Shown here: positions 32,782 through 57,723 of the stretch, in pieces
Position numbering within the stretch: the first letter of the stretch is position 1
Layout of the letters: every line of letters starts with the position of its first letter
Assembly: GCF_048403405.1 (NCBI RefSeq)
Contig: NZ_CP183129.1
Direction: 5' to 3' (one strand)
From: Escherichia coli
GTDB lineage: Bacteria > Pseudomonadota > Gammaproteobacteria > Enterobacterales > Enterobacteriaceae
DNA length: 64,000 nt
Made by a program: the position numbers and the translations under genes
Notes under the pieces: model-generated
The model's input: the letters and a program-made list of their open reading frames with translations, nothing else
What the model was told of the DNA's origin: nothing
Databases searched by the model: none

Positions 32782-32929
32782 AACTTTGCCTCAGGCATTA
32801 GAAATAGCGCGTTATTGTACACGGATTAATCGCACTACAAAACAGGATCACAAACATCCTCCGCAAACAAGTATTGCAGAGTCCCTTTGTGATCGCTTTC
32901 ACGGAGCATAAAAAGGGTTATCCAAAGGT

Positions 32930-33025
32930 CATTGCACCAATATGGTGCTTAATGTTTCCATTGAAGCACTATATTGGTGCAACATTCACATCGTGGTGCA
33001 GCCCTTTTGCACGATGGTGCGCATG
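32930..33025. promoter_or_regulatory. NtrC (NRI) enhancer binding sites upstream of glnA
   Basis: Repeated TGCACCA-N-TGGTGCA-like dyads (tgcaccaatatggtgct, gcactatattggtgca, others). Confidence 0.7.
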
Positions 33026-39690: not shown

Positions 39691-39756
39691 AATGGTTCGT
39701 CTTTTAGCCGTTTTATTCAGTATAGATTTGCGGCGGAATCTAACAGAAAGCAAGCA

Positions 39757-40001
39757 AAGAAAAAAGGCGACAGATTACTCTGTCGCCTTTTTTCCTGACT
39801 CATAACCCTTAACGGGTCTTACAATCCTTGCAGGCCGCCAACACACCCTGTTTTTCCATTAGCCGGAACAATCCGTGTTGATTCCATTTCCGTTTAATTA
39901 CGTCTCCGGACGTTTGTCTTCCTGACAATCCTCTGTCTTCGCCTCCTGGCGCTCCTGACCCTCATCCTGAGTCATTGTTCCTGTTAGCGTCCTCGCTCTA
40001 T
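39757..40001 (-). ncRNA. csrC: CsrC small RNA (CsrA-sequestering)
   Basis: Reverse complement reads ATAGAGCGAGGACGCTAACAGGAACAATGACTCAGGATGAGGGTCAGGAGCGCCAGGAGG... with multiple GGA motifs and a terminal hairpin GGCGACAGA...TCTGTCGCC plus T-run; matches CsrC as I recall it. Confidence 0.85.
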
Positions 40002-41029: not shown

Positions 41030-41138
41030 TAAAAAACGCCCCAGTCATTACTGACTGGGGCGGCTAAAATATTCAGCCAAATCCGATTACGTGAAGTAAA
41101 AGGTCTGAAAGATAGAACATCTTACCTCTGTACCCTAC
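41030..41138 (-). ncRNA. spf: Spot 42 small RNA
   Basis: Reverse complement reads GTAGGGTACAGAGGTAAGATGTTCTATCTTTCAGACCTTTTACTTCACGTAATCGGATTTGGCTGAATATTTTAGCCGCCCCAGTCAGTAATGACTGGGGCGTTTTTTA, the Spot 42 sequence with its terminator. Confidence 0.9.
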
Positions 41139-41285
41139 GCGACTAACTTTACTCTTTTTTGTTCAGTTCAGAAAGCACTTTTTGTAATTTTTTTTCAGTT
41201 GTTGCATAGGAATTTCTAATAGCCATCACAAAACGTGACAGCTTATGTTGCTTACTTACGAAAAAAGGGCATGTTCAGGCGAATC

Positions 41286-49037: not shown

Positions 49038-49622
49038 GTGAATCTGATGACGACGATAACAGGCGTTGTGCTGGCGGGCGGTAAAGCCAGACGAATGGGC
49101 GGCGTAGATAAAGGATTGCTGGAATTAAATGGCAAACCGCTGTGGCAACATGTCGCTGACGCGCTTATGACGCAGCTCTCTCACGTCGTGGTTAATGCTA
49201 ATCGTCATCAGGAAATCTATCAGGCAAGCGGTCTGAAAGTGATTGAAGATTCACTGGCGGATTACCCAGGCCCTCTGGCAGGAATGCTTTCAGTAATGCA
49301 GCAGGAAGCTGGTGAGTGGTTTTTGTTTTGTCCGTGCGATACGCCTTACATTCCCCCAGATTTAGCCGCCCGGCTTAATCATCAGCGCAAAGATGCGCCT
49401 GTCGTGTGGGTCCATGACGGTGAACGCGATCACCCGACTATTGCTCTGGTAAACCGCGCTATTGAGCCTTTATTACTGGAATATCTGCAAGCAGGAGAAC
49501 GCCGGGTAATGGCATTTATGCGTCTGGCTGGCGGTCATGCGGTTGATTTCAGCGATCATAAAGATGCATTTGTTAACGTGAATACGCCAGAGGAGCTTGC
49601 CCGATGGCAGGAAAAACGATGA
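49038..49622 (+). CDS. mobA: Molybdenum cofactor guanylyltransferase
   Basis: 194-aa ORF with [11 protein letters not shown] motif. Confidence 0.9.
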
Positions 49623-50131
49623 TACCGTTACTCGCCTTTGCCGCGTGGAGTGGTACCGGAAAAACTACGCTTTTGAAAAAACTGATCCCGGCATTATGCG
49701 CCAGAGGGATCCGTCCAGGGCTGATTAAGCATACGCACCATGATATGGATGTTGATAAGCCAGGCAAAGATAGCTATGAGCTGCGCAAGGCTGGCGCGGC
49801 ACAAACCATCGTTGCCAGCCAGCAACGATGGGCCTTGATGACGGAAACACCAGACGAAGAAGAGCTGGATCTACAGTTTCTCGCAAGTCGAATGGATACC
49901 TCAAAGCTGGATTTGATTCTGGTCGAAGGGTTTAAGCATGAAGAGATCGCAAAGATTGTGCTGTTTCGCGATAGAGCCGGACATCGACCTGAAGAATTAG
50001 TGATAGACAGGCATGTTATTGCTGTAGCCAGTGATGTGCCGCTTAATCTTGATGTCGCATTACTGGATATTAATGATGTTGAGGGGCTGGCTGATTTTGT
50101 GGTGGAGTGGATGCAAAAGCAGAACGGATAA
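49604..50131 (+). CDS. mobB: Molybdopterin-guanine dinucleotide biosynthesis adapter protein MobB
   Basis: 175-aa ORF with P-loop GTGKTT; overlaps mobA 3' end. Confidence 0.85.
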
Positions 50132-50189
50132 GCAAGAGTAGGCTGGATAAGACGCGCCAGCGTCGCATCCGGCATTTTTTTTGCACCAA

Positions 50190-50222
50190 CGCAAAAAGGC
50201 CATCCTGACGGATGGCCTTTCG
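50190..50222 (-). terminator. rrnA operon terminator (bidirectional hairpin GGCCATCC-GTCA-GGATGGCC)
   Basis: Perfect hairpin followed by T-run on the rRNA strand, immediately 3' of 5S rRNA. Confidence 0.75.
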
Positions 50223-50231
50223 CTTAATTTG

Positions 50232-50351
50232 ATGCCTGGCAGTTCCCTACTCTCGCATGGGGAGACCCCACACTACCATCGGCGCTACGGCGTTTCACTT
50301 CTGAGTTCGGCATGGGGTCAGGTGGGACCACCGCGCTAAGGCCGCCAGGCA
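50232..50351 (-). rRNA. rrfA: 5S ribosomal RNA
   Basis: Reverse complement matches E. coli 5S rRNA (UGCCUGGCGGCC...CUGCCAGGCAU) over 120 nt. Confidence 0.95.
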
Positions 50352-50445
50352 AATTCTGTTTTATTAACCCGCTTGTCGCCGGTTAATTTAATCTGTATCA
50401 GGCTGAAAATCTTCTCTCAATCCGCCAAAACAGCTTCGGCGTTGT

Positions 50446-53349
<2,904 letters not shown>

Positions 53350-53532
53350 TCACAACCCGAAGATGTTTCTTTCGATTCATCATCGTGTTGCGAAAATTTG
53401 AGAGACTCACGAACAACTTTCATTGTTCAGTGTTTCAATTTTCAGCTTGATCCAGATTTTTAAAGAGCAAAACTTCGCAGTGAACCTTTGCAGGTACACT
53501 CTGAAGTATTTTTTATTTAATCACTACAGAGA

Positions 53533-53608
53533 TGGTGGAGCTATGCGGGATCGAACCGCAGACCTCCTGCGTGCAAAGCAGGCGCTCTCCCAGCTGAGCT
53601 ATAGCCCC
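53533..53608 (-). tRNA. alaT: tRNA-Ala (UGC)
   Basis: Reverse complement GGGGCTATAGCTCAGCTGGGAGAGCGCCTGCTTTGCACGCAGGAGGTCTGCGGTTCGATCCCGCATAGCTCCACCA. Confidence 0.95.
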
Positions 53609-53650
53609 ATAACATGTAGTTAAAACCTCTTCAAATTTGCGGTGCAAATT

Positions 53651-53727
<77 letters not shown>

Positions 53728-53795
53728 GTAGAGGTTTTACTGCTCATTTTCATCAGACAATCTGTGTGAGCACTGCAAAGCACAGTTCTTTAAGG

Positions 53796-55337
<1,542 letters not shown>

Positions 55338-55461
55338 AAAAGTTTGATGCTCAAAGAATTAAACTTCGTAATGAATTACGTGTTCACTCTTGAGACTTGG
55401 TATTCATTTATCGTCTTGCGACGTTAAGAATCCGTATCTTCGAGTGCCCACACAGATTATC

Positions 55462-55481
55462 TGATAAATTGTTAAAGAGCA
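55462..55481 (-). promoter_or_regulatory. rrn leader boxA antitermination element (TGCTCTTTAACAATTTATCA)
   Basis: Exact boxA-type sequence on the rRNA strand between P2 and the 16S 5' end. Confidence 0.75.
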
Positions 55482-55518
55482 GTGCCGCTTCGCTTTTTCT
55501 CAGCGGCGCGGGGTGTGC

Positions 55519-55546
55519 ATAATACGCTTTCCCGCTACAGAGTCAA
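55519..55546 (-). promoter_or_regulatory. rrnA P2 promoter (-35 TTGACT, -10 TATTAT)
   Basis: Hexamers with about 16-bp spacing read on the minus strand. Confidence 0.75.
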
Positions 55547-55637
55547 GCATTTTTTTTGCTTTTCCCTGTTGAGATTCTCAGGAGAACCCCGCTGACCCGG
55601 CGGCGTGTTTGCCGTTGTTCCGTGTCAGTGGTGGCGC

Positions 55638-55665
55638 ATTATAGGGAGTTATTCCGGCCTGACAA
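55638..55665 (-). promoter_or_regulatory. rrnA P1 promoter (-35 TTGTCA, -10 TATAAT, GCGC discriminator)
   Basis: Classic rrn P1 architecture TTGTCAGGCCGGAATAACTCCCTATAATGCGCCACCACTG on the minus strand. Confidence 0.8.
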
Positions 55666-55714
55666 GAGGAAATTTAAAATAATTTTCTGACCGCGCATTT
55701 TTTATTCTTTATGC

Positions 55715-56260
55715 TTATTTCAGCGTCGGTTTGTCGGTTAAATGGGCGATTTCTCGGGCGAAATTCGCCACCTGCTCCCAATCGGTATAGACAACTTCTT
55801 TGCGCGTATCCGTTTCACCGCCTGACATCTTCATAATTAACTTGATCATAAAACGGTCATACCAGCGATAACGTGGGTAACGCAGCGCCCCGGCAATGAC
55901 CGCGCAGCGATCGGGACGCCATTGTGAACTCATCAGAAACTTCCGCGCGTAGCTGTTGGTCTGTGGAGTACGCTTCTCAGGTTTACGCGCCACCAGGTTT
56001 ACGGAGTAAAAGGCGCTCGGCATCGAATTCAGCCGCGTCGCATGCTTTTTGACAAATTCCTGGAACGCAGAGTGGTAGTGACCATAGCGAATAGAAGCAC
56101 CAATGACCACACGGTCGTAGTTTTCCCACTGTGGTTCTTCAATGCGGTGCACATTGGCGACATCCGCCTGGATCCCCAGTTCTTTCAGTTCCGAAGCCAG
56201 GTAGGAGGCAATCTCGCGCGTTTGTCCGTCCCTTGTTGAGAAAAGAATTAATGTTTTCAC
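55715..56260 (-). CDS. hemG: Protoporphyrinogen IX dehydrogenase (menaquinone), flavodoxin-like
   Basis: 181-aa [21 protein letters not shown]... flavodoxin fold signature. Confidence 0.9.
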
Positions 56261-56271
56261 GTATTACTCCA

Positions 56272-57723
56272 TCATTCACGCCAGAAAGTCGGGGTAAAGA
56301 GCACCAGCAATGTAAAGACCTCAAGACGACCAAACAGCATGTTGGCAATCAGGATCCATTTAGCCACCGGGTTCATACTGGTAAAGTTATCAGCAACCAC
56401 GCCAAGCCCTGGCCCCAGGTTATTCAATGTCGCAACAACTGAGGCAAAGGCAGAAAAGTCATCCACGCCCGTGGCGATAATCGCCAGCATACTGACAATA
56501 AACACCAATGCATAGGCGGAGAAAAATCCCCAAACGGCTTCGAGGATACGTTCCGGCAGTGCGCGATTCCCCAGCTTAATGCTATAGACGGCGTTCGGAT
56601 GCACCAGTCGTTTCAGCTCACGGTTCCCCTGCTTAAACAGCAGCAGGATGCGGATCACTTTCAGGCCACCGCCCGTTGACCCGGCACAACCGCCGATAAA
56701 AGCTGAACATAAGAGCAGTACCGGCAAAAAGAGCGGCCAGCGGGCAATGCTGTCAGTCGTAAACCCGGCGGTTGTCGCCATCGACACCACCTGGAAAAAC
56801 GCCTGGTTAATTGTCATCAGCGCCGAACTATAGACATTATGAAACCACAGCACGAGGGTACAAATAATCACCAGCGTAAACTGTACGCCGATAAACATGC
56901 GAAATTCCGGATCGCGCCAATAAACCTTCAGACTACGCCCACTTAACAGCGAAAAGTGCAGACCGTAGTTACATCCGGAGATCAACAGGAAGATAGCAAT
57001 GATAGTGTTAATTGTCGGGCTGTCGAAATAACCGATACTGGCATCATGTGTCGAGAAGCCGCCAATAGCGATAGTCGCAAAGCTATGGCCGATGGCATCA
57101 AAGGCATCCATTCCGGCAAACCACAACGCCAGCGCACAGGCGACGGTCAGCAAGACATAAATCAACCACAGGGTTTTCGCCGTTTCCGCAATTCGCGGGC
57201 GCATTTTGTTATCTTTCAGCGGGCCGGGCATTTCTGCGCGATAGAGCTGCATCCCACCCACGCCGAGGATAGGCAGTATCGCAACCGCCAACACGATGAT
57301 CCCCATCCCGCCAAACCATTGCAGCATCTGGCGATAAAAGAGGATGGCGTGAGGGAGCGAATCCAGCCCCACCAGCGTAGTGGCCCCCGTGGTGGTCAGG
57401 CCAGAGAAAGATTCAAAAAACGCATCGGTAATCGTGAGGTTCGGGCTTTCCGAGAAGATAAAAGGGAGCGCACCGACGCTACCCAGCACGGTCCAGAACA
57501 GCACCACTATCAGAAACCCCTCACGGGATTTCAGTTCGCCCTTCTCTTTGCGGTTCGGCCACCACAGCATAGAGCCAATGGCGAGGGCGACAAAAAAGGT
57601 CTGGGTAAAAGCGCGGCCCGCTCCATCCCGGTAGATGAGTGCTACCAGCCCAGGGATAATCATGGTCCCTGAAAATAAGATGACCAGTAGTCCAACGATT
57701 CGGGTAATGGCGCGAAAATGCAT
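56272..57723 (-). CDS. trkH: Trk system potassium uptake protein TrkH
   Basis: 483-aa polytopic membrane ORF. Confidence 0.9.
   Translation of the reverse strand: MHFRAITRIVGLLVILFSGTMIIPGLVALIYRDGAGRAFTQTFFVALAIGSMLWWPNRKEKGELKSREGFLIVVLFWTVLGSVGALPFIFSESPNLTITDAFFESFSGLTTTGATTLVGLDSLPHAILFYRQMLQWFGGMGIIVLAVAILPILGVGGMQLYRAEMPGPLKDNKMRPRIAETAKTLWLIYVLLTVACALALWFAGMDAFDAIGHSFATIAIGGFSTHDASIGYFDSPTINTIIAIFLLISGCNYGLHFSLLSGRSLKVYWRDPEFRMFIGVQFTLVIICTLVLWFHNVYSSALMTINQAFFQVVSMATTAGFTTDSIARWPLFLPVLLLCSAFIGGCAGSTGGGLKVIRILLLFKQGNRELKRLVHPNAVYSIKLGNRALPERILEAVWGFFSAYALVFIVSMLAIIATGVDDFSAFASVVATLNNLGPGLGVVADNFTSMNPVAKWILIANMLFGRLEVFTLLVLFTPTFWRE

What the first reader, a model, noticed from the sequence alone, without database searches (positions are those of the whole stretch)
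55462..55670. Canonical rrnA tandem promoters and boxA upstream of 16S
P1 (TTGTCA / TATAAT with GCGC discriminator), P2 (TTGACT / TATTAT) and boxA are all readable on the minus strand, confirming an intact, functional rRNA operon downstream of hemG rather than a fragment.
Basis: partly seen in the sequence, partly recalled or inferred. Interest (0 to 1): 0.1.

Follow-up and report, generated by a model that had tools for sequence, protein, structure and literature searches.

The report
Standard E. coli rrnA promoter region
This is the well-known control region of the E. coli rrnA ribosomal RNA operon (two tandem promoters and an anti-termination signal), intact and in its usual place after hemG, so the finding is correct but ordinary.

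Summary
On the minus strand: P1 (TTGTCA 55665-55660, 16-bp spacer, TATAAT 55643-55638, discriminator GCGCCACC, +1 A at 55629), P2 (TTGACT 55546-55541, 16-bp spacer, TATTAT 55524-55519) and boxA (TGCTCTTTAACAA 55481-55469).

The window is an E. coli chromosome segment, differing by 6 SNPs in 64 kb from strain 4621. The order fadBA-pepQ-yigZ-trkH-hemG-rrn-mobBA fixes the operon as rrnA. From 55800 to 55575, covering the Fis region, UP element, P1 core and early transcript, the sequence is 100% identical to K-12 rrnA. The UP element and P1 core also equal rrnB P1, the best-studied rRNA promoter.

16S, tRNA-Ile, tRNA-Ala, 23S and 5S are all full length. A second boxA lies before 23S and a terminator hairpin follows 5S.

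Hexamer matches alone are not above chance. The evidence is identity with characterised promoters and invariance across diverse E. coli.

The only departures are natural polymorphisms between P1 and P2 and two private leader SNPs (-122, -73). None touches a functional motif. Already known; low interest.

The parts
55715..56260 (-). hemG (protoporphyrinogen oxidase), the upstream neighbour. Its last ~70 nt overlap the P1 upstream activating region.
   Evidence: 181-aa ORF. Annotated hemG at the same coordinates in the near-identical strain 4621 and in K-12.
55733..55747 (-). Candidate Fis site centred at -111 from the P1 start (GCCCATTTAACCGAC), inside the hemG coding end.
   Evidence: Fis-consensus scan. 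The same scan and numbering recovered the three rrnB P1 sites at -71, -102 and -143, which I know from the literature, as a positive control. Binding was not tested.
55693..55707 (-). Candidate Fis site I centred at -71 (GAATAAAAAATGCGC).
   Evidence: Same position as rrnB P1 site I. Sequence identical to K-12 rrnA.
55667..55689 (-). UP element (-60 to -38; CAGAAAATTATTTTAAATTTCCT), the A/T-rich contact for the RNA polymerase alpha C-terminal domains.
   Evidence: Identical to K-12 rrnA, rrnB and rrnC (0 differences). Position -38 to -59 as stated in PMC4446441.
55660..55665 (-). P1 -35 hexamer TTGTCA.
   Evidence: Invariant in 10 E. coli rrnA leaders.
55638..55643 (-). P1 -10 hexamer TATAAT. 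16-bp spacer, no TGn extended -10.
   Evidence: Invariant in all seven K-12 operons.
55629..55637 (-). P1 discriminator GCGCCACC (C at the second base after the -10 hexamer) and the +1 A at 55629.
   Evidence: Sequence. The +1 is assigned by identity with rrnB P1. The numbering is validated by recovery of the rrnB Fis sites at -71, -102 and -143. Defining features are listed in PMC3113569.
55541..55546 (-). P2 -35 hexamer TTGACT.
   Evidence: Invariant in the seven K-12 operons and 10 E. coli rrnA leaders.
55519..55524 (-). P2 -10 hexamer TATTAT (16-bp spacer).
   Evidence: Same as K-12 rrnA, B, C and G.
55510..55512 (-). Inferred P2 start (a C, 7-9 nt after the -10 hexamer), about 119 nt downstream of the P1 start.
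   Evidence: Inference. The hexamer-to-hexamer offset is 119 bp. P1 and P2 are about 120 bp apart per PMC4696680. All three candidate bases are C.
55484..55507 (-). boxB-type hairpin GCCGCU-GAGAAAAAGCGA-AGCGGC.
   Evidence: 6-bp stem in the centroid fold. Order boxB-boxA-boxC just after P2 as described in PMC10250234.
55469..55481 (-). Leader boxA TGCTCTTTAACAA, the NusB/NusE(S10) loading site for the rrn antitermination complex.
   Evidence: Invariant in the seven K-12 operons and 10 E. coli rrnA leaders.
55447..55456 (-). boxC TCTGTGTGGG.
   Evidence: Motif UCUGUGUGGG as defined in PMC10250234.
55426..55468 (-). Leader strand of the 16S leader-trailer helix (the RNase III substrate). Contains the private C-to-T change at 55459 (-122).
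   Evidence: Co-fold with the trailer gives -57.4 kcal/mol, against -57.7 for K-12. U(-122) pairs with a trailer G as a wobble.
53749..53790 (-). Trailer strand of the 16S leader-trailer helix.
53796..55337 (-). 16S rRNA gene, full length.
   Evidence: Rfam RF00177, model 1-1533 of 1533, 1578 bits. 12 mismatches and 2 gap columns against K-12 rrsA, mostly in the known variable helices.
53651..53727 (-). tRNA-Ile (GAU).
53533..53608 (-). tRNA-Ala (UGC).
53457..53469 (-). Spacer boxA TGCTCTTTAAAAA upstream of 23S.
   Evidence: Identical in K-12.
50446..53349 (-). 23S rRNA gene, full length.
   Evidence: Rfam RF02541, model 1-2925 of 2925.
50234..50349 (-). 5S rRNA gene.
   Evidence: Rfam RF00001, model 1-120 of 120.
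50193..50217 (-). Intrinsic-terminator-like hairpin GGCCATCC-GTCA-GGATGGCC followed by TTTTT, between the convergent rrnA and mobB.
   Evidence: Sequence. The same palindrome was flagged by the terminator scan on the + strand, 50195-50220.

Best explanation
This is the regulatory region of the E. coli rrnA ribosomal RNA operon, working as in K-12.

P1 is a sigma-70 promoter that is intrinsically strong but forms short-lived open complexes. Strength comes from the UP element (contacted by the alpha C-terminal domains) and from Fis bound upstream, with site I at -71. Instability comes from the 16-bp spacer, the non-consensus -35, the lack of an extended -10, the GC-rich 8-nt discriminator and the C two bases after the -10 hexamer. 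That instability makes P1 sensitive to the initiating ATP concentration and to ppGpp/DksA.

P2 lies about 119 bp downstream and supplies basal transcription at slow growth and in stationary phase.

The nascent leader then presents boxB, boxA and boxC. boxA recruits NusB/NusE and, with NusA, NusG, SuhB and S4, converts RNA polymerase into the Rho-resistant rrn antitermination complex. boxC and its flanks pair with the 16S trailer to form the leader-trailer helix needed for 30S biogenesis and RNase III processing.

What is shown here: the sequence, positions, identity with the characterised K-12 elements and their conservation. What is inferred: every binding and activity step, taken from the literature on the identical K-12 sequences.
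For: - Exact elements and coordinates.
- Chromosomal context: the window is collinear with E. coli strain 4621 with 6 SNPs in 64 kb. Gene order is fadA-fadB / pepQ-yigZ-trkH-hemG-16S-tRNAIle-tRNAAla-23S-5S / mobB-mobA, as at K-12 rrnA.
- Identity: 55800-55575 is identical to K-12 rrnA. The UP element and P1 core are also identical to K-12 rrnB and rrnC.
- Conservation: a hemG-linked copy covering at least 80% of the promoter region is present in 5381 of 5426 complete E. coli genomes. In ten diverse rrnA leaders the P1 core, P2 -35 and boxA are invariant.
- Promoter class: all features that PMC3113569 lists for iNTP-sensitive E. coli rRNA promoters are present (sequence).
- Fis: consensus sites at -71 and -111, found with numbering that recovers the known rrnB sites as a control.
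- Leader: boxB-boxA-boxC order and the boxC motif match PMC10250234. The leader-trailer helix folds at -57.4 kcal/mol. A second boxA lies before 23S.
- Intactness: full-length rRNAs and both tRNAs.
Against: No transcript, 5'-end or binding data exist for this sequence, so function rests on identity with K-12.

Hexamer matches alone are no better than chance.

Fourteen alignment columns in 55574-55338 differ from K-12 rrnA. They include a different block and an A8 tract just upstream of the P2 -35, an A in the P2 spacer, and two private leader SNPs. An effect of these on P2 strength or processing was not tested. Most of these states occur in other K-12 operons or other E. coli rrnA leaders.
Confidence: 0.97

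Rival explanations
1. The hexamers are chance matches, or the operon is a decayed or fragmentary rrn copy that is not a working rRNA operon.
For: Consensus-level promoter matches are as frequent in shuffled sequence as in the window. The operon differs from K-12 rrnA at about 1.3% of positions.
Against: - Identity with the characterised K-12 rrnA/rrnB P1 from the Fis region to +55.
- Invariance across E. coli.
- Full-length Rfam matches for 16S, 23S and 5S, and two intact tRNAs.
- The rRNA differences cluster in known variable helices (PMC4696680).
Confidence: 0.01
2. The region works as an rrnA promoter and leader, but the lineage-specific changes give it measurably different regulation or processing from K-12 rrnA. 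The changes are the TCTCAA block and A8 tract upstream of the P2 -35, the A in the P2 spacer, U at -122 in the leader-trailer helix and U at -73.
For: The changes sit next to functional elements. The A-tract abuts the P2 -35, where an UP-like contact could form. Position -122 lies in the base of the leader-trailer helix. T at -122 and T at -73 are absent from all seven K-12 operons, from nine other E. coli rrnA leaders and from rrnB of the near-identical strain 4621.
Against: - No hexamer, discriminator, boxA or boxC base is changed.
- The -122 change keeps the pair as G-U and the helix energy is unchanged.
- PMC10250234 reports that leader nucleotides upstream of -124 are dispensable and deletions between -128 and -114 cost activity only incrementally, so the base of the helix is its least critical part.
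- The TCTCAA block and variable A-tract are common natural alleles (5 of 10 sampled rrnA leaders).
Confidence: 0.03

Closest known systems
E. coli K-12 rrnA P1-P2 promoter and leader (hemG-rrsA intergenic region)
   Same: Same locus and neighbours. Identical from 171 nt upstream of the P1 start to +55. The same P1 and P2 hexamers, 16-bp spacers and discriminators, and the same boxB, boxA and boxC.
   Different: 14 alignment columns differ in 55574-55338. These are a block between P1 and P2 (TCTCAA type instead of CTCCGG, and A8 instead of A5TA3), G-to-A in the P2 spacer, C-to-T at -122, A-to-T at -73 and G-to-A at -11.
E. coli rrnB P1, the reference rRNA promoter for UP element, Fis, iNTP and ppGpp/DksA studies
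   Same: UP element, -35, spacer, -10, discriminator and +1 are identical (0 differences from -60 to +1). A Fis site I is at -71 in both.
   Different: Sequence upstream of about -62 is unrelated (hemG end versus murI end). The further Fis-consensus sites fall at -111 and -222 rather than -102 and -143.
Phage lambda nut sites (boxA/boxB N-antitermination signals)
   Same: A boxA sequence and a boxB hairpin on the nascent RNA recruit NusB/NusE and other Nus factors to modify RNA polymerase (PMC10250234).
   Different: The order is boxB-boxA-boxC instead of boxA-boxB. No N protein is involved. SuhB and S4 take part, and the complex also assists rRNA folding.

Membership tests
E. coli rrn P1-type (iNTP- and ppGpp/DksA-sensitive) sigma-70 promoter | 16-bp spacer between the -35 and -10 hexamers | tested here: met
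   The spacer is 16 bp at P1, and also at P2. Criterion from PMC3113569.
E. coli rrn P1-type (iNTP- and ppGpp/DksA-sensitive) sigma-70 promoter | Non-consensus -35 and no extended -10 (TGn) | tested here: met
   The -35 is TTGTCA (5 of 6). The three bases before TATAAT are CCC.
E. coli rrn P1-type (iNTP- and ppGpp/DksA-sensitive) sigma-70 promoter | G/C-rich discriminator with C two bases downstream of the -10 hexamer | tested here: met
   The discriminator is GCGCCACC, 7 of 8 G/C, with C as its second base.
E. coli rrn P1-type (iNTP- and ppGpp/DksA-sensitive) sigma-70 promoter | A/T-rich UP element at about -40 to -60, with Fis sites upstream | tested here: met
   The UP element is identical to that of rrnB P1. 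Fis-consensus sites lie at -71 and -111. Actual binding was not tested.
E. coli rrn P1-type (iNTP- and ppGpp/DksA-sensitive) sigma-70 promoter | Short-lived open complex; activity responds to iNTP, ppGpp/DksA and growth rate | not testable with these tools
   Needs in vitro transcription or reporter assays. Inferred from sequence identity with rrnA/rrnB P1, studied in PMC4446441.
rrn antitermination leader (boxB-boxA-boxC) | boxA consensus on the sense strand just after P2, with a second copy before 23S | tested here: met
   TGCTCTTTAACAA at 55481-55469 and TGCTCTTTAAAAA at 53469-53457. These are the only two matches in the window, against 0.18 expected.
rrn antitermination leader (boxB-boxA-boxC) | boxB hairpin 5' of boxA and boxC (UCUGUGUGGG) 3' of it, with boxC pairing to the 16S trailer | tested here: met
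   Definitions from PMC10250234.
rrn antitermination leader (boxB-boxA-boxC) | Recruitment of NusB/NusE, NusA, NusG, SuhB and S4; resistance to Rho | not testable with these tools
   Biochemical property. Inferred from the invariant boxA.
rrnA operon (as opposed to the other six rrn operons) | Located between hemG and mobB, with tRNA-Ile and tRNA-Ala in the 16S-23S spacer and no distal tRNA | tested here: met
   No tRNA was found between 5S and mobB.
rrnA operon (as opposed to the other six rrn operons) | Complete 16S, 23S and 5S genes | tested here: met
   Full-model Rfam matches.

The most novel reading that the evidence does not exclude
The rrnA-private leader changes of this lineage (U at -122 in the base of the leader-trailer helix, U at -73), together with the A8 tract abutting the P2 -35, tune P2 strength or 16S processing of this one operon. 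That would be an operon-specific regulatory allele.
Probability: 0.03. Interest if true: 0.15.

Novelty: already known. Interest (0 to 1): 0.04.

Why it matters
It matters only as annotation. It fixes the window as an E. coli chromosomal segment carrying a complete rrnA operon with its standard control region, and gives exact coordinates for every element. Nothing here changes what is known about rRNA transcription. The natural variation seen between P1 and P2 and in the leader is a small example of polymorphism and inter-operon exchange in rrn leaders.

Tried and rejected
- **Hexamer statistics as evidence.** Rejected: matches with at least 10 of 12 bases are no more frequent than in shuffles. 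I relied on homology instead.
- **The block between P1 and P2 as a K-12 rrnG-like gene-conversion patch specific to this strain.** It is closer to K-12 rrnG (6 differences against 10). But the TCTCAA type is a common rrnA allele in E. coli (5 of 10 sampled) and is also in rrnB of the near-identical strain 4621. It is a widespread allele, not a private event.
- **A compensatory trailer change for the -122 C-to-T.** None was found. The pair is kept as G-U.
- **Reading Hirvonen et al. 2001 for the mapped rrnA Fis sites.** The paper is not held. The Fis sites are therefore consensus predictions, checked only against the rrnB control.
- **Side look at the 617-aa ORF at 10586-12439.** No Pfam, NCBIfam or PDB sequence match. 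Not pursued further because it lies outside the finding.

Full report
**Observation**

Reading the minus strand of 55200-56100 and locating exact strings gives the following elements.

| Element | Sequence | Coordinates |
|---|---|---|
| P1 -35 | TTGTCA | 55665-55660 |
| P1 -10 (16-bp spacer) | TATAAT | 55643-55638 |
| P1 discriminator | GCGCCACC | 55637-55630 |
| P2 -35 | TTGACT | 55546-55541 |
| P2 -10 (16-bp spacer) | TATTAT | 55524-55519 |
| boxA | TGCTCTTTAACAA | 55481-55469 |

The consensus scanner independently reports the two promoters as the best two sites in 49500-56500, at 11 of 12 and 10 of 12 matches.

**Is it more than chance?**

Not on hexamers alone. The scanner finds 5 sites against 4.6 expected. 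My whole-window count of sites with at least 10 of 12 matches is 6, against 9.3 +/- 2.5 in shuffles. The real evidence is homology and context, set out below. boxA-type 13-mers occur exactly twice, both on the rrn sense strand, in the leader and before 23S, against 0.18 expected.

**Context**

- Rfam finds full-length 16S (55337-53796), 23S (53349-50446) and 5S (50349-50234) on the minus strand.
- ARAGORN finds tRNA-Ile(GAU) and tRNA-Ala(UGC) in the spacer.
- The ORF ending at 55715 is hemG, preceded by trkH, yigZ and pepQ.
- The whole window is collinear with E. coli strain 4621 (NZ_CP103479.1 4958850-5022849), with 6 mismatches in 64,000 bases.
- The RefSeq annotation of that strain gives fadA-fadB / pepQ-yigZ-trkH-hemG-16S-tRNAIle-tRNAAla-23S-5S / mobB-mobA. 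This is the arrangement of rrnA in K-12 MG1655.

The operon is rrnA by position and by spacer type.

Against the seven K-12 leaders (alignment A1; per-region counts):

- The window is identical to K-12 rrnA from 55800 to 55575. That covers the hemG end, the Fis region, the UP element, the P1 core and the first 55 nt of the transcript.
- The UP element and P1 core are also identical to rrnB and rrnC.
- boxA is invariant in all seven operons.
- The P2 -35 is invariant. The P2 -10 is the TATTAT type of rrnA, B, C and G.

A hemG-anchored query of the promoter region finds a copy covering at least 80% in 5381 of 5426 complete E. coli genomes, at identities from about 94% to 100%.

Ten rrnA leaders sampled across that range (alignment A2) show the following:

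- The P1 -35, spacer, -10, discriminator and start, the P2 -35, boxA and boxC are all invariant.
- The only P2 -10 variant is TAATAT, in the O157:H7 strain, whose P2 and boxB segment is of the rrnD/E/H type.
- Variation is concentrated in about 25 nt just upstream of the P2 -35.

Numbering from the P1 start (A at 55629, assigned by identity with rrnB P1), the same unit also contains these elements:

- **UP element.** PMC4446441 places it at -38 to -59.
- **Fis sites.** A Fis-consensus scan finds sites centred at -71 (55707-55693), -111 (55747-55733) and, further away, -222. With the same pattern and numbering, the scan recovers the rrnB P1 sites at -71, -102 and -143 that I know from the literature, which validates both. 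Because hemG ends at 55715 (-86), the upstream activating region overlaps the end of the hemG coding sequence.
- **boxB and boxC.** Downstream of P2 lie a boxB-type hairpin (55507-55484) and boxC TCTGTGTGGG (55456-55447). Order and motif match PMC10250234.
- **Leader-trailer helix.** Leader 55468-55426 co-folds with the 16S trailer 53790-53749 into a long helix of -57.4 kcal/mol, against -57.7 for K-12.
- **Spacer boxA.** A second boxA (TGCTCTTTAAAAA, 53469-53457) precedes 23S, as in K-12.
- **Terminator.** A GC-rich hairpin followed by T5 (50217-50193) follows 5S, between the convergent rrnA and mobB.

**Mechanism**

P1 has every feature that PMC3113569 lists for iNTP-sensitive E. coli rRNA promoters: a 16-bp spacer, a non-consensus -35, no TGn, a G/C-rich discriminator and a C two bases after the -10 hexamer.

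From the literature on the identical K-12 sequences (PMC4696680; PMC4446441):

- The UP element and Fis give P1 its high activity in fast growth.
- The unstable open complex makes P1 responsive to initiating NTP and to ppGpp/DksA.
- P2 provides basal expression at slow growth and in stationary phase.

boxA on the nascent RNA recruits NusB/NusE and, with NusA, NusG, SuhB and S4, forms the rrn antitermination complex. The leader-trailer helix is essential for 30S formation.

The sequence-level statements are shown here. The binding and regulatory steps are inferred from identity with the studied sequences.

**Differences from K-12 rrnA**

Fourteen alignment columns differ, all in 55574-55338:

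- A block between P1 and P2: GAATCTCAACAGGGAAAAGCAAAAAAAATGC against GAACTCCGGCAGAGAAAGCAAAAATAAATGC.
- G-to-A in the P2 spacer (55528), the state found in K-12 rrnC, D, E and H.
- C-to-T at 55459 (-122).
- A-to-T at 55410 (-73).
- G-to-A at 55348 (-11), the state found in five K-12 operons.

The TCTCAA block is a common allele. It is present in 5 of 10 sampled rrnA leaders and in rrnB of strain 4621.

The T at -122 and the T at -73 are found in none of the seven K-12 operons, in none of the nine other rrnA leaders, and not in rrnB of strain 4621. They appear private to rrnA of this lineage. An identical 423-nt hemG-to-16S stretch occurs in four complete genomes.

U(-122) pairs with a trailer G as a wobble, and the helix energy is unchanged. 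PMC10250234 reports that nucleotides upstream of -124 are dispensable, and that deletions from -128 to -114 reduce activity only incrementally.

Across the rest of the operon, differences from K-12 cluster in known variable helices: 16S positions 79-93 and 1002-1038, and 23S positions 540-551, 1209-1228, 1723-1733 and 1867-1872. This agrees with the inter-operon micro-heterogeneity described in PMC4696680.

**Verdict**

The feature is the textbook rrnA control region. It is already known and of low interest. The small residual novelty is the possibility that the lineage-private leader SNPs or the A-tract before P2 have a regulatory effect. I consider this unlikely.

Noticed in passing
window 10586-12439 (-): A continuous 617-aa ORF lies between yiiE and fabY. 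It has no Pfam, NCBIfam or PDB sequence match. It carries a C-x5-R motif (CKSAKDRT) that, from memory, resembles the catalytic loop of SopB/IpgD-type phosphoinositide phosphatases; this was not tested. RefSeq annotates the identical DNA of strain 4621 as a 'transposase' plus a partial hypothetical protein, which looks wrong. The segment is accessory: at least 80% of 9900-12800 is present in 1061 of 5426 complete E. coli genomes, including O157:H7.
   Followed up: partly
window 39748-40001 (-): A full-length CsrC sRNA lies here (Rfam, 278 bits). In the identical strain 4621, RefSeq places a 'hypothetical protein, frameshifted; internal stop' pseudo-CDS at 39809-39975 on top of it. That is probably an annotation artefact.
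   Followed up: no
window 55553-55574 (-); loci L011-L018: The ~25 nt upstream of the rrnA P2 -35 are the polymorphic hot spot of the leader in E. coli. Two block types occur (TCTCAA versus C/TTCCGG), and the A-tract varies from 6 to 9 A. The window carries TCTCAA with A8.
   Followed up: yes
L018 (E. coli O157:H7 Z1825, rrnA leader), about 440-480: At the rrnA locus of this O157:H7 strain, the P2 -10, discriminator and boxB segment is of the rrnD/E/H type (TAATAT, CGCCACCTCGCGACAGTGAGCTG...). The P1 region is rrnA type. This is an apparent inter-operon gene-conversion mosaic.
   Followed up: partly
L019 about 32010 (rrnB leader of strain 4621): The leader boxA of rrnB in the near-identical strain reads TGCTCTTTAAAAA, the form normally seen in the 16S-23S spacer, instead of TGCTCTTTAACAA.
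   Followed up: no
window 50100-50195 versus L001 6155-6292: K-12 carries about 139 bp between the rrfA terminator and mobB that the window lacks. The window has a single REP-like palindrome there.
   Followed up: no
window 55715-55780 (-): The P1 upstream activating region (the Fis-consensus site at -111 and beyond) lies inside the 3' end of the hemG coding sequence. The hemG stop is only 50 bp from the P1 -35, and no terminator-like site lies between them.
   Followed up: partly
window 2176-2818 (-): In the identical strain 4621, RefSeq marks a frameshifted, N-terminally truncated YiiG-family pseudogene here, between frvR and fdhD.
   Followed up: no
window 53357-53465 (-), 32863-32970 (-), 41030-41148 (-), 4516-4574 (+): Other Rfam matches in the window: StyR-44 (part of the 23S leader), ES222 sRNA between typA and glnA, Spot 42, and the SECIS element in the formate dehydrogenase alpha-subunit gene.
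   Followed up: no
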